Source: Malacoraja senta (Eukaryota). Taken from it: a DNA stretch of 64,000 nucleotides. The stretch is taken from the NCBI GenBank assembly GCA_038087875.1, contig CM075992.1, forward strand, positions 8,062,001-8,126,000, written 5' to 3'. The notes under the pieces are model-generated. The model made no database searches, was not told the DNA's origin, and saw nothing but the letters and a program-made list of their open reading frames with translations. Within the stretch, counting starts at the first letter, position 1, and each line of letters begins with the position of its first letter. The position numbers were made by a program, and so were the translations under genes. Below are positions 177 through 9,872 of this stretch, piece by piece.

Positions 177-1106
177 CTATATATTGGTAGGGGTTGAGTG
201 TAAATAATGGGGTAACAATTTAATATGCAATGGAGTCACCAGTAAGGAAAGAAGCATTCAATAAGTTGCAGAATCTTACCAGGGAGGGATACTAAAATAA
301 AAAGATTTGTATCTCCATGGAATTCTTCATATAACACGACCAAAGATTTTTTCCGACCAACACAGTAGGATATACAGCAGCCATCTTGGACTTGCATGCA
401 ACAAGACTTTTGCGATTTTGGTCCAGAATTTAAAAATACCCGGTATGTCAGTTGGAAAACTAATTTTTTTCACACTTCCTTTCTTGTGTGTCTAACCATG
501 AGGCCAATGAGATCTCACTTTAAGCGAGCATCTTCCAGATTTGTAGCATCAGCCAATATTGGGAAGGTCTCAGTAATGAAGCAATCCATTTAGAGGGGAA
601 CACACTGATGTGTCACACACTGACCTTTCTCAGTCTTCCCCAGGCTAGGCTTGTATTCCTTTATTGATGTTGGTTCCTTTTTCAATTCCTCCAATTGAAA
701 AAGGAACCAACATGTTTTGTTTTAGTTCAGAGGTACAGCGCGAAAACAGGCCCTTCGGCCCACCAAGGCCGCGCCGACCAATGGCACACACCCGGCATTT
801 TAACAAAGCCAATTAACCCAACAGGCCTGCATGTCTTTGGAGTGTGGGAGGAAACCAGAGCAGCTGGAGAAAACCCACGCAGGTCATGGGAAAACGTACA
901 AACTCCATACAGACAGCACCAGTGGTCTGGATCAAACCTGTGTCTCTGGCGCTGTAAGGCAGCAACTCTACCGCTGGTGTGTGCAGGTTTGTAGGTTAAT
1001 TGACTTCTGTAAATTGTCCCTAGTGTGTAGGATAGTGCTGGTGTACAGGATCGCAGGTCGGCACGGTCTCAGTGGGCTGAAGGACCTGTTTCTGCACTGT
1101 ATCTCT

Positions 1107-1259
1107 TCTTCTTCTTCTTCTTCTTCTTCTTTCGTGTGGCATGCACAGCCTAAAGTTGTTGGACAACTTGTTCTATTTGATTTTCCGTTTGTGCACGTCG
1201 AGTTGATTGCATTAGTCGAAACAGGGCGGACCACGTGAAGGTTGCAATCTTCCACCCCC
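1107..1259 (-). mobile_element. Short ribozyme-headed retroposon, copy 1, (AAG)n tail
   Basis: 13-bp TSD gcactg(t/c)atctct at 1094-1106 and 1260-1272; homologous to 9731-9872; inserted in the tail of a tRNA SINE. Confidence 0.85.
1205..1258 (-). ncRNA. Minimal HDV/CPEB3-like self-cleaving ribozyme (54 nt), predicted
   Basis: GGGGUGG-AA-GAUUGCA-ACC-UUCACGU-GGU-CCGCCCU-GU-UUCGA-CUAA-UGCAAUC: P1 7 bp with G1.U, P2 7 bp, P3 3 bp, L3 UUCACGU, J4/2 CUAA. Confidence 0.85.
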
Positions 1260-1539
1260 GCACTGCATCTCTAAAATGTTTCACTGGATAAACACAAGAA
1301 ATAACTGCAGGCCTCTGCTGTTCTCCAGAGTTTTCCATCCGGCCTGAAACATTCATTGTTTGTCTTCCCACAGATGCTGCCTGACCTGCTAAACACTCCC
1401 AAATTGTCTTGTCAGAGACTGCCGGGTGGGACTAACATAAAAAAAACACACCGGGATAAAATGATCTTTTTGGTGCAGTACAGACCAGGGAGAAAATGAG
1501 TCATCTCCACGAAACACAATGGATAGGGAGACTCAAGAA

Positions 1540-7496: not shown

Positions 7497-9730
7497 CTGA
7501 CAAGAGAAGAGTACAAGAACACACTTTTACAATACAATCAATACAATACAAACAGTTTTATTCGTCACTTGCACATAAAGTCCAAGTGAAATGAATTTGC
7601 CAGCAGCGGTACAATGAAAAAGAACGCACAAAAACACAATCAAAATTTAACACAAACATCCACCACAGCATTCATCACTGTGGTGGAAGGCACACCATTT
7701 CGTTCTTTTAATAAAGCAGCTCACGTCACGCTTAGTTTAGTTTAGAGATACAGCACGGAAACAGGCCCTTCAGCCCACAGTGTCGGCACCAACCTGCCAT
7801 CGCCACACATTAAGACGTGTTGTTACTTGCGAGCAAAGCACCAAGGCCAATTCCTAGTACGTGTACATATTTGGCTAATAAAATGTATTCACATTCAAAT
7901 TTAACAGTGTTCTACATGAGAGCGAGCTAATTGTCAAATCTAAATTGGAGTCGTTCTTCTACAAAACATGATCTAATAGAACAAAAGAATGGCTCGGTGG
8001 TAAGTCTGAATGACATTGTAAATTATATGGAACACAATATGGAGGACAGGTTGTCTTTTTAATAAAGAAATGAAGATGGAATCCTGCAGTAATAACATGT
8101 GCTCTTTCAAGGCCATAAAGAAGTCATGATTGAAAAAATAGTTGACGCTCCAGAGATAAGTTATTGTTATTGGATGAGCTTGATTTGGACCCAGCTTTTC
8201 CTATATTCTGAAAGGCGATAGAATCTTTCAGTCATGCCATATTCAGACTTGGTAGGAGTGTTTTACTGATAAGAAAAATGTATAATTGCGCTACCTTTCC
8301 TTTGTTCTGTGAGTGGGAGCCCGAGAAGCACTGAGCAACGTTTGTGCTCATTGTAGATCTTGCCACTCCCGTCTGACGAATCAATTAAAGATTGCCATGA
8401 TTTACCTTTAACAATTTTGTTGCTATCTGCTTTTTAAGAAACAAACTTTGACAGGGACAATCTTTACATTTATACCAAGCCAATTAACCTACAAACCTGT
8501 ATATTCTTTGAGGTGTGGGTGTTAACTAAAGTTCTCGGAGAAAACCCACATGGTGACGGTGATGTACAAACTCCGTGCAGACAGCACCCATAGCCAGGAT
8601 GGGACCCGGGTCTCTGGCGCTGCTAGTGCTGTAAGGCAGCAACTCTACCGCTGCGCCACCGTGCCGCCCATTGTCCCAAAACACCATCCGGCCTTCACTG
8701 CTAGGGAGCAACCTGACTCTACCAAACCTTTTGTCTCCTTTTCACCTCGAGCCTTTGTCACTATCACCACTCTCCTGCTAATCACCCCTCTCATCTGAAT
8801 CCATAGATCACTTGCCAGGCTTTCTCCACCCCCAAACTCTCTTTGCCAGCCTTCTCCCACTTACTCCATCAGTCTGAGGAAGGGTCTCGACCTGAAAATT
8901 TGCACGACCTTTTATCGCTGGATGCAACCAGACCTGCTGAGACCCTCCAGCACTTTGTTCAGATTCCGTCTGCAGTCTCGTGTCTCGGCACAGCGGTAGA
9001 GTTGCTGCCTCGCAGCGCCAGAGACCTGGATTCGATCCTGACTATGGGCGCTGTCTGTACGGAGTTTGTACATTTGCCCTGTGACCATGTGGGCTTTCTC
9101 CGGGTGCCGAGGTTTTCCCCCTCACTCCAAAGTCGTGCAGGTTTGTAGGTAGACTGGCTTCAGTCACATTGGAAACTCTCCCAGGTGTGGCGATGGTGCT
9201 GGAGTACTGGGGGGGATCGCTGGTCGGCACGGACTCGGTGGGCAGAAGGGCCTCTTTCCACGCTCTAAAGTCGCCATCAGACTTCTGAACTCGAGTCAAA
9301 GCGCCAGAAACAAGCCTTTCAGGCAACAAAGATGCATGACAAGGTTGAATTTGCCCCCTGTGGTCGGGGCTCTTGAACTCTGGCCGACTTTGTGGGCCAA
9401 TATCAATGCCCCCCCACCCCCTAAAAGGCCGTCCTCTGTTGGTCCGGCAAAACGGATAATCCAGAAAGGTTCTGGAACAAAGGGTGCCAGAATATCAGTG
9501 GTGGACCTGCACCTGAAATTACAATCTGCTGATTATCTGAAAGAAAAATATTGGACATGTGAAATTATCTAAAACTTTGGAAATCAGTGTCAAGTCTGGA
9601 AGATTGTAAAGTACTTCATTGCAAGGCGACAGGCTGCAAGTCAGTGATAGTGAACTGCATCTCCTGCTGGGCAGTAGTTCTGTAACTACCCTCTGCAAAC
9701 AGAACTCTTTGCCAACCAGGATCAAGTGCT

Positions 9731-9872
9731 TCTTCTTCTTCTTGAGTATGGCGTGCACAGCCTAAAGTTGTAGGACAACTTGTTCTATTTGATCTTATTT
9801 GATTGTACACACCAGGTTGATTGCATTAGTCAAAACAGAGCAGACCCCGTGAAGGTTGCAATCTTCCACCCC
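9731..9872 (-). mobile_element. Short ribozyme-headed retroposon, copy 2
   Basis: Perfect 11-bp TSD gatcaagtgct at 9720-9730 and 9873-9883; (AAG)n tail. Confidence 0.85.
9819..9872 (-). ncRNA. HDV-like ribozyme, more decayed copy
   Basis: GGGGUGG-AA-GAUUGCA-ACC-UUCACGG-GGU-CUGCUCU-GU-UUUGA-CUAA-UGCAAUC; P1 retained through G.U wobbles. Confidence 0.7.

What the first reader, a model, noticed from the sequence alone, without database searches (positions are those of the whole stretch)
1107..1259. A ~150-nt retroposon headed by a minimal HDV/CPEB3-like ribozyme
Seen: on the minus strand 1258-1205 reads GGGGUGG AA GAUUGCA ACC UUCACGU GGU CCGCCCU GU UUCGA CUAA UGCAAUC, which pairs into the nested double pseudoknot order P1-P2-P3-L3-P3'-P1'-P1.1-(P4)-J4/2-P2', with a G1.U wobble, a perfect 7-bp P2 and a C-N-A-A J4/2. 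P4 is reduced to about 5 nt. The rest of the element is a 3' stem domain (GUGCACA...UGUGCAY, AAGUUGU/ACAACUU hairpin) and an (AAG)n tail; it has a TSD and no Pol III A/B boxes or credible ORF. Established: L3 UUCACGU followed by P1'-GU is the arrangement in the mammalian CPEB3 ribozyme, and HDV-like ribozymes process the 5' ends of R2, RTE and L1Tc/ingi retrotransposons and their short derivatives. Inference: this is a promoterless SINE-like family that excises its 5' end from host transcripts and borrows a LINE reverse transcriptase; I do not know of a description in cartilaginous fish.
Basis: partly seen in the sequence, partly recalled or inferred. Interest (0 to 1): 0.92.

Follow-up and report, generated by a model that had tools for sequence, protein, structure and literature searches.

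The report
Ribozyme-headed short retroposon, P4-less HDV type
A 125-base jumping element present in over 4,000 copies starts exactly at a stripped-down hepatitis-delta-type self-cutting RNA fold that it shares with a family of full-length LINE elements, a known trick of such elements seen here in an unusually minimal form.

Summary
The element is a family: a 29-nt head core has 4,050 exact genomic matches. All 61 copies examined begin at the same G1. Contigs from four other coded organisms break at the same base.

The fold is supported by covariation. The same genome holds a ~3.2 kb LINE (endonuclease plus reverse transcriptase) with an (AAG)n tail. This LINE starts with an HDV-like fold of identical architecture but different helix sequences. 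Nine of 18 pairs change on both sides and none break. Relatives of that LINE in metagenome contigs carry the same head, with L3 UUCACGU, at the expected 5' position. Their best Rfam match is the CPEB3 ribozyme, below its cut-off.

The short element is a P4-deleted version of this head joined to the clade's 3' terminus, ACACGAAAG(AAG)n. It has no tRNA, 7SL or 5S similarity.

Self-cleavage and expression were not shown, because the runs available were contigs and probably DNA. The principle is known from R2, RTE, Baggins and L1Tc/NARTc. What looks new is a P4-less head on a high-copy retroposon in a large eukaryotic genome, and the CPEB3-like LINE clade.

The parts
1260..1272 (-). 5' copy of the target-site duplication, (AG)AGATGCAGTGC. 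The target is another interspersed repeat.
   Evidence: It matches 1094-1104(1106) with one G/A difference.
1259..1259 (-). One extra G between the target-site duplication and G1. It is not part of the family consensus.
   Evidence: Other copies have unrelated bases at this position.
1205..1258 (-). 54-nt P4-less HDV/CPEB3-like ribozyme fold: P1 1258-1252 with 1229-1223; J1/2 1251-1250; P2 1249-1243 with 1211-1205; P3 1242-1240 with 1232-1230; L3 1239-1233; P1.1 C at 1237 with G at 1222; linker 1220-1216; J4/2 CUAA 1215-1212, with the putative catalytic C at 1215.
   Evidence: Between subfamily consensuses only 1 of 54 positions differs, and it is the N of J4/2.
1183..1204 (-). Variable linker between the head and the 3' domain.
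   Evidence: One search shows most of the 12 differences between the A and B consensuses lie here. One search shows many variant letters at 1182-1202.
1140..1197 (-). 3' stem domain: long-range stem 1197-1190 with 1147-1140 enclosing the hairpin 1169-1163 with 1159-1153.
   Evidence: minimum-energy and centroid folds; z -1.3 here, -3.0 in the copy at 9744-9818. It is conserved between subfamilies.
1132..1139 (-). 3' terminal motif CCACACGA, read with the first AAG of the tail as CACACGAAAG. It is shared with the LINE clade.
   Evidence: The shark-genome LINE ends GACACACGACAG(AAG)n, and the metagenome relative L119 ends ACACGAAAG(AAG)n.
1105..1131 (-). (AAG)9 tail.
1094..1104 (-). 3' copy of the target-site duplication, AGATACAGTGC.
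9729..9872 (-). Second, older copy of subfamily B: head 9872-9819, (AAG)5 tail 9743-9729, target-site duplication GCACTTGATC at 9882-9873 and 9729/9728-9720. P1' has decayed to CUGCUCU, which still pairs by G.U.

Best explanation
The element is a ~125-nt non-coding, non-autonomous non-LTR retroposon made of two functional modules joined by a variable linker.

The 5' module is a minimal hepatitis-delta-type self-cleaving ribozyme, with the P4 hairpin replaced by 5 nt. When a copy is read through by a host or neighbouring transcript, the ribozyme is inferred to cut 5' of G1. This releases an RNA whose first base is the element's first base.

The 3' module is a stem domain, the terminus CACACGAAAG and an (AAG)n tail. 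It is inferred to be recognised by the reverse transcriptase of a compact single-ORF LINE clade present in the same genome, which copies the RNA into a nicked target by target-primed reverse transcription. That process would produce the 8-13 bp target-site duplications.

That LINE uses the same device. Its 85-nt head has the same architecture plus a P4 domain, and its AUG lies in J4/2-P2'.

Shown here: anatomy, copy number, precise 5' ends, covariation, the LINE and its head, and the shared 3' terminus. Inferred: cleavage, read-through transcription, and which LINE supplies the enzyme.
For: Family and ends
- 40 of 40 scored matches (of 2,217 first-look candidates) are 97-100% identical and start at query base 1-2.
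- All 61 fetched copies start at GGGGU, with differing flanks. Target-site duplications abutting G1 were read by eye in, for example, L004, L005, L010, L011, L013 and L026. They were not tallied for all copies.
- The head core has 4,050 exact matches and the reversed control has 0.
- In four other coded organisms, contigs break at 1258 in 49, 28, 13 and 7 contigs.

Selection on the head
- The subfamily A and B consensuses differ at 1 of 54 head positions, against 12 of 81 body columns.
- That one head position is the N of C-N-A-A, seen as U, G or A.
- In one search only nt 45 and nt 32 (U.G to U-A) vary above 10% in the head.

The LINE
- It has an (AAG)n tail and a 5'-truncation ladder.
- RVT_1 scores E=4e-32 and Exo_endo_phos_2 scores E=4e-9.
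- 28 of 39 long matches begin at query 39-44, which marks a common 5' end. The other 11 begin at query 48-56.
- Seven 5' junctions with unrelated flanks were read.

Covariation
- In alignment A1 (26 distinct SINE heads plus 7 LINE heads), 98.8% of 594 cells pair, against 38-46% when partners are slid. Nine of 18 pairs change on both sides.
- With metagenome relatives added (A4, 24 rows), 94.6% of 390 cells pair, against 38-53% slid, and 11 of 18 pairs change on both sides.

Relatives elsewhere
- Model R1 found 9 heads at E<0.05 in 80 metagenome loci that encode RT relatives.
- In L175 the head lies 1,362 nt upstream of the RT match. The distance expected from the genome's own LINE is 1,367 nt.
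- These heads hit Rfam CPEB3_ribozyme at 26.1, 25.2 and 22.1 bits.

P4 is dispensable
- PMC10879173 and PMC6326823 (passages) report active minimal HDV-like ribozymes that lack P4.
Against: - No cleavage assay was done and no RNA evidence was obtained. All 24 runs offered were contigs, and the four laid were flagged as RNA by guess only, X1 as probably DNA.
- The head itself scores only 16 bits against RF02682, whose cut-off is 44 (E=1.5). It gave no hit to RF00622 or RF00094 at E<=10.
- P1.1 has one Watson-Crick pair rather than two.
- No LINE with the SINE's own head sequence exists in this genome. One search found only a deleted SINE copy, and one search found only a SINE variant.
- The genome's LINE has L3 UUUACGC and shares only the last ~12 nt plus the tail with the SINE. 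The partner could therefore be another or an extinct lineage.
- My strict descriptor found none of the metagenome heads (0 plus-strand hits in 80 loci). They were found only by the covariance model, and several are decayed.
- P2 and P3 in alignment A4 were fitted to model R2, which leans the counts towards pairing. P1 and P1.1 were not in that model.
- The covariation rests on a few lineages, not on many independent events.
Confidence: 0.72

Rival explanations
1. The head is a real descendant of a LINE ribozyme but no longer cleaves after losing P4. It is kept because it acts as a 5' binding site for the LINE protein or as an internal promoter at the DNA level, as Pr77 of L1Tc does. The 5' end at G1 would then be a transcription start.
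For: - In L1Tc/NARTc the same 77 nt are both promoter and ribozyme (PMC3383444, abstract).
- The R2 protein binds the 5' pseudoknot (PMC6765202, passage).
- P1.1 is weak, and the Rfam score of the head is far below its cut-off.
- No RNA data were obtained.
Against: - Every catalytic-core feature is retained in the consensus of both subfamilies, and the only drifting position is the one the fold tolerates.
- C44 is kept in 60 of 61 copies.
- P4-less HDV-like ribozymes are reported active.
- A promoter role would not require P1/P2 complementarity, yet that complementarity is what covaries.
Confidence: 0.17
2. It is an ordinary Pol III SINE (tRNA-, 7SL- or 5S-derived) whose 5' end is the Pol III start site, and the HDV-like fold is a chance reading.
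For: - The size, the high copy number and the LINE-like tail fit a SINE.
- By eye, nt 37-43 GUUUCGA resembles the B-box core at 6 of 7 positions (consensus recalled, not tested).
- A descriptor hit alone occurs about once per 60 random windows.
Against: - ARAGORN found no tRNA, and Rfam gave no tRNA, 7SL or 5S match at E<=10.
- The same architecture heads a 3.2-kb protein-coding LINE and its relatives in other organisms, with compensatory changes in all helices.
- The B-box-like stretch decays freely in copies.
Confidence: 0.03
3. The short element is not mobilised by the LINE found here. Its partner is a different or extinct LINE of the same clade, and the resemblance of the 3' termini reflects clade-wide conservation.
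For: - The SINE head is closer to the metagenome LINE heads than to the genome's own LINE head. By eye it matches L175 at 30 of 38 positions in nt 1-38, with the same L3 and the same GU.
- The metagenome relative L119 ends in exactly ACACGAAAG(AAG)n.
- Beyond the last ~12 nt the 3' ends differ.
Against: - Subfamily A copies are 98-100% alike, so amplification was recent and needs an active enzyme.
- The LINE found has copies 93-97% alike and at least 1,312 first-look candidates.
- No other (AAG)n-tailed family turned up in about 250 kb of flanks: of the 3 hits that lacked the SINE's 3' end, 2 belonged to this LINE and 1 was not examined.
Confidence: 0.3

Closest known systems
HDV-like ribozymes at the 5' ends of non-LTR retrotransposons (R2, RTE, Baggins, L1Tc)
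   Same: A nested double-pseudoknot ribozyme forms the first bases of the element. It is thought to free a promoterless element from a co-transcript, and in the LINE here the start codon lies inside the ribozyme's 3' part (PMC6765202 passages).
   Different: - Here the host element is a 125-nt non-coding retroposon and P4 is absent.
- The LINE clade has an Exo_endo_phos_2-type endonuclease and a C-terminal CX1CX8HX4C motif. From memory, that fits the Jockey/I/CR1 assemblage better than RTE. The clade was not determined here.
- Ruminski et al. 2011 was not held, so overlap with their list cannot be excluded.
NARTc (short partner of L1Tc) and R2 SIDEs (internally deleted R2 derivatives)
   Same: They are short non-autonomous elements that keep the LINE's 5' ribozyme and its 3' end (PMC3383444 and PMC3414825, abstracts).
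   Different: Those share near-identical heads with their living LINE. Here no LINE with the same head sequence is present, the ribozyme has lost P4, and there are at least 4,050 copies.
Mammalian CPEB3 ribozyme (Rfam RF00622)
   Same: - The helix lengths are the same: P1 7 bp, J1/2 2 nt, P2 7 bp, P3 3 bp, L3 7 nt.
- L3 UUCACGU is identical and sits at nt 20-26, and GU follows P1'.
- It is the best Rfam hit for the LINE relatives' heads.
   Different: - CPEB3 is a single-copy intronic sequence conserved in mammals and has a P4 hairpin.
- Scores here are below the gathering cut-off (22-26 bits against 35). The SINE head itself gave no RF00622 hit.
Minimal P4-less HDV-like ribozymes (metagenomic drz, theta ribozymes of gut phages)
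   Same: P4 is absent and the size is about 50-55 nt. They are reported active (PMC10879173, PMC6326823 passages).
   Different: Those come from metagenomes and phages, lie next to tRNAs, and are of unknown origin. This one heads a retroposon in a large eukaryotic genome and is visibly a P4 deletion of a LINE head (alignment A1).
Hammerhead-bearing short retroelements (schistosome SINE-like Sm-alpha, retrozymes)
   Same: They are short non-autonomous repeats that carry a self-cleaving ribozyme (PMC6765202 passage; PMC4918200 abstract).
   Different: They use a different ribozyme class, and retrozymes have a different life cycle through circular RNA.

Membership tests
HDV-like (delta-like) self-cleaving ribozymes | Strand order P1-P2-P3-L3-P3'-P1'-P1.1-(P4)-J4/2-P2', forming a nested double pseudoknot | tested here: met
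   by reading. Searches give 98.8% and 94.6% of cells paired, against 38-53% for slid controls, with 9 and 11 of 18 pairs changing on both sides.
HDV-like (delta-like) self-cleaving ribozymes | Cleavage site 5' of G1, with G1.U closing P1 | tested here: met
   G1.U36 is present. All 61 copies begin at G1. The cleavage itself was not tested.
HDV-like (delta-like) self-cleaving ribozymes | Catalytic C at the start of J4/2 (C-N-A-A) | tested here: met
   C44 is kept in 60 of 61 copies and N varies as U, G or A. The LINE has CCAA and the metagenome relatives have CUAA or CCAA.
HDV-like (delta-like) self-cleaving ribozymes | P1.1 mini-helix between L3 and the bases after P1' | tested here: inconclusive
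   Only one Watson-Crick pair forms (C22-G37). It covaries with U22-A37 in the LINE. The second position is U.U.
HDV-like (delta-like) self-cleaving ribozymes | P4 helix | tested here: not met
   Five nt (UUCGA) stand in its place. P4 is reported dispensable, so this places the head in the minimal subgroup.
HDV-like (delta-like) self-cleaving ribozymes | Score at or above an Rfam gathering cut-off | tested here: not met
   RF02682 scores 16 bits against a cut-off of 44. LINE heads score 18.8-19.3 bits.
HDV-like (delta-like) self-cleaving ribozymes | Divalent-ion-dependent self-scission | not testable with these tools
   This needs an in vitro assay.
CPEB3 ribozyme (RF00622) | Rfam model score at or above 35 bits, and location in the CPEB3 intron of mammals | tested here: not met
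   The SINE head gave no hit at E<=10. Relatives' LINE heads score 22.1-26.1 bits. The context is a dispersed repeat.
Pol III SINE (tRNA-, 7SL- or 5S-derived) | Head related to a Pol III gene, with an internal promoter | tested here: not met
   ARAGORN found none. Rfam gave no such hit at E<=10. No dedicated A/B-box scan was run.
Non-autonomous LINE derivative (NARTc or SIDE type) | 5' head and 3' end shared with an autonomous LINE of the same genome | tested here: inconclusive
   The head architecture and the terminal ~12 nt plus tail are shared. The head sequence is not found on any LINE in this genome.
Non-LTR retroposon made by target-primed reverse transcription | Target-site duplications, a 3' repeat tail, dispersed copies | tested here: met

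The most novel reading that the evidence does not exclude
The single-ORF LINE clade found here is widespread in animals and ends in AYACGANAG(AAG)n. It carries a CPEB3-type ribozyme as its 5' head. The mammalian CPEB3 intronic ribozyme would then be an exapted 5' end of such an element. The 'minimal' P4-less HDV-like ribozymes of unknown origin would include, or parallel, retroposon heads like this one. That would give both orphan ribozyme groups a concrete ancestry.
Probability: 0.3. Interest if true: 0.8.

Novelty: new variant of a known kind. Interest (0 to 1): 0.62.

Why it matters
It extends ribozyme-processed retrotransposition to a high-copy, very short, non-coding element in a large eukaryotic genome. 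It also shows that about 54 nt without P4 appear to be enough for that role in nature.

It supplies a natural covariation series for the HDV-like fold: the SINE, the genome's own LINE, and LINE relatives in other organisms.

It points to a specific LINE clade whose heads are the closest known non-mammalian look-alikes of the CPEB3 ribozyme. That makes the origin of the CPEB3 ribozyme testable by phylogeny.

On the practical side, thousands of potential self-cleavage sites scattered in introns could affect host transcripts.

Tried and rejected
- **RNA evidence.** The look-up of sequencing runs offered only Logan contigs. The four laid are flagged as RNA by guess only (X1 as probably DNA), so nothing can be said about expression or RNA 5' ends.
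- **LINE with the SINE's head.** A search for the head followed by non-SINE sequence gave only L061, a SINE copy with a deletion. A search for a GCC/GGC version of P3 gave one SINE variant copy.
- **Strict descriptor on the 80 metagenome loci.** It gave 0 plus-strand hits and 13 minus-strand hits at 6 sites. These are antisense to RT coding sequence, have weak P1, and were judged chance.
- **MAFFT alignment A3 across all three groups.** It misaligned J4/2 and P2' and was not used for counting.
- **An internally deleted LINE derivative sharing the LINE head.** This was suspected from the short matches. The one example fetched (L180) is a LINE 5' fragment lacking P1, interrupted by another repeat and lying next to a satellite. 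The idea was dropped for that group. The group matching query 41-277 was not examined.
- **LINE clade assignment.** Source names are automatic ('X-element'), and no reference set was available.
- **Earlier findings of this scan.** There was nothing for this genome or sequence, and the word search returned unrelated cases.
- **Literature.** Searches and the passages read found no description of this element. Ruminski et al. 2011 was not held. Dfam and Repbase were not available.

Full report
**What is there**

P1 (nt 1-7 with 30-36) has 7 pairs, including G1.U36. P2 (nt 10-16 with 48-54) has 7 perfect pairs. P3 has 3 pairs around the 7-nt loop UUCACGU. J4/2 reads CUAA. Only UUCGA stands where P4 would be.

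The element runs from G1 (1258) to an (AAG)9 tail (1131-1105). It is bracketed by AGATGCAGTGC (1270-1260) and AGATACAGTGC (1104-1094). One extra G (1259) lies between the duplication and G1. A second, older copy lies at 9872-9729 on the same strand, with its own duplication GCACTTGATC.

**It is a large family with a fixed 5' end**

Searching the window's own genome (1.94 Gb held) gave 2,217 first-look candidates. The 40 that were scored were 97-100% identical and began at query base 1 or 2. The second copy defined an older subfamily at 93-95% identity.

All 61 fetched copies begin at GGGGU after unrelated flanks and end in (AAG)n. In many of them the duplication can be read directly against G1. 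I did not tally this for every copy.

A 29-nt degenerate head core has 4,050 exact matches, against 0 for the reversed control.

Contigs of four runs under four other organism codes hold the element at high depth. In those runs, 49, 28, 13 and 7 contigs run into unrelated sequence exactly at 1258. These runs are flagged as RNA by guess only (one as probably DNA), so they say nothing about RNA.

**Is the fold more than chance?**

A descriptor of my own hit only this site in the window and hit once in 60 simulated windows. A descriptor hit is therefore only mildly unusual by itself. The decisive evidence is comparative.

**The LINE**

In the flanks of the fetched loci I found another (AAG)n-tailed repeat. 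Its features are:
- at least 1,312 first-look candidates;
- a 5'-truncation ladder;
- an RVT_1 domain (E=4e-32) and an Exo_endo_phos_2 endonuclease (E=4e-9);
- a C-terminal CX1CX8HX4C motif, read in the sequence printed and the frames;
- a length of about 3.2 kb, worked out from the coordinates;
- a 3' end GACACACGACAG(AAG)n, against the short element's GCCACACGAAAG(AAG)n.

Twenty-eight of 39 long matches to its 5' region begin at query 39-44, and the other 11 begin at query 48-56. Seven 5' junctions have unrelated flanks.

The base before the BLAST boundary is g in 4 junctions, a (following c, as CpG decay would give) in 2, and c in 1. The element most likely starts GGAGGAG.

From there it reads GGAGGAG AC AAAGACA GCC UUUACGC GGC CUCCUCU AC, then 36 nt, then CCAA UGUCUUU. 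The AUG spans J4/2 and P2'. This is the same architecture as the short element, position for position up to nt 38. MAFFT aligns the two with a single 31-column gap where the LINE has P4.

**Covariation**

On alignment A1 (33 distinct sequences), 98.8% of 594 cells pair, against 38-46% when partners are slid. Nine of 18 pairs differ on both sides and none are broken at the consensus level. The changes include G-C to A-U in P1, four pairs of P2, A-U to G-C in P3, and C22-G37 to U22-A37 in P1.1.

This is essentially one comparison between two lineages, so I looked further.

RT relatives (38-62% identical) in 80 metagenome loci were searched with a covariance model built from A1. Nine heads scored E<0.05. 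They read GGGGAGG AA GACAGAU GCC UUCACGU GGC CCUCCCU GU, then a 6-8 bp hairpin, then CUAA AUCUGUC, with variants.

In L175 the head lies 1,362 nt before the RT match, and 1,367 nt is expected. In L110 and L134 the distances are 1,409 and 1,437 nt.

With these added (A4, 24 rows), 94.6% of 390 cells pair, against 38-53% slid. Eleven of 18 pairs change on both sides, with up to four pair types at one position.

Two spurious rows (L143, L109) and three partly misaligned rows (L175, L134, L110) were left in A4. P2 and P3 in A4 were fitted to model R2, so those counts lean towards pairing. P1 and P1.1 were not in that model.

My strict descriptor had missed all of these heads.

**Selection on the short element**

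The A and B consensuses differ at 1 of 54 head positions, the N of C-N-A-A. They differ at 12 of 81 body columns, mostly in the linker at nt 55-76. Individual copies decay freely, with mean non-consensus 0.030 in the head against 0.015 in the body, as dead copies should.

The 3' terminus matches the clade: relative L119 ends in ACACGAAAG(AAG)n.

**Comparison with what is known**

A review (PMC6765202, passages) states that HDV-like ribozymes head R2, L1Tc, Baggins and RTE elements that lack promoters. [quoted passage not shown] NARTc and the R2 SIDEs are short derivatives that keep the head (abstracts). The principle is therefore known.

Minimal HDV-like ribozymes without P4 are known from metagenomes and phages, with origin and function called open (PMC10879173, passage). 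They are reported to behave like full-length ones (PMC6326823, passage).

The CPEB3 link is checked in three ways:
- A mouse primer starting 18 nt from the cleavage site reads G-UUCACGU-CGC (PMC10919898, passage).
- RF00622 is the best Rfam hit for the relatives' heads (26.1, 25.2 and 22.1 bits, cut-off 35).
- By my eye-count of the alignment, 33 of 51 consensus positions outside P4 are identical.

L3 of this type also occurs in the bacterial RF02682 consensus. L3 identity alone is therefore weak evidence of descent.

**What remains open**

- Cleavage and transcription remain untested.
- Which LINE supplies the enzyme is open. No LINE with the short element's own head sequence is in this genome.
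- The LINE clade's name is undetermined.
- The host taxon was not checked.
- I cannot say whether Ruminski et al. 2011 (not held) or the repeat databases already list this clade.
- My literature searches and the passages read found no description.

**Verdict**

It is a new variant of a known kind. Interest is moderate to high, mainly for the natural P4-less head and the CPEB3-like LINE clade.

Noticed in passing
window 1000-1106 and 1260-1300: The copy at 1107-1258 is inserted into another interspersed repeat (..ATACAGTGCAGAAACAGGTCCTTCAGCCCACTGAGACC..). Several other copies sit in a second abundant repeat (..GATCAGCCATGATC..TTGAATGGCGG..), for example L013, L018, L025 and L054.
   Followed up: no
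G000:C954:188354-188382: One copy of the short element carries P3 as GCC/GGC instead of ACC/GGU. This is a change on both sides that keeps the pair. L044 likewise has G6-C31 changed to A6-U31.
   Followed up: no
L180 (G000:C5104:95640-96199): This is a LINE 5' fragment that lacks P1. It is cut off after about 215 nt by another repeat and is followed by a ~20-nt tandem satellite (ACCCTCACCCACCCGAAACC-like). The same head variant (CTCTACGC) makes up most of the 67 exact LINE-head matches, many of them on small unplaced contigs. This suggests amplification by segmental or satellite duplication rather than by retrotransposition.
   Followed up: partly
L134:3564-3662: The head of this metagenome LINE relative has an internal duplication of the P4-J4/2-P2' segment, giving two candidate P2' strands.
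   Followed up: no
L119:260-395: An intact 1,026-aa relative has a possible HDV-like head upstream of its AUG. It has a perfect 8-bp P4 and CUAA, but a short L3 and a 6-bp P1. The covariance model did not find it, and it was read by eye only.
   Followed up: no
L006/L007, L023/L024, L075/L076: These are pairs of loci with identical flanks on the same contig, which indicates recent segmental duplications that carry the elements.
   Followed up: no
matches to query 41-277: About six copies share the LINE's full 5' end but stop matching near nt 237 of the element, at 95-96% identity. They could be an internally deleted derivative or a shared interruption.
   Followed up: no
Close protein relatives (~1,000 aa, PF00078+PF14529+PF03372) sit on contigs of about 3.1-3.6 kb from many animals, including teleosts, a tunicate, a pseudoscorpion and insects. 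That size is what full-length element transcripts would have. Their 5' ends could not be fetched.
   Followed up: no
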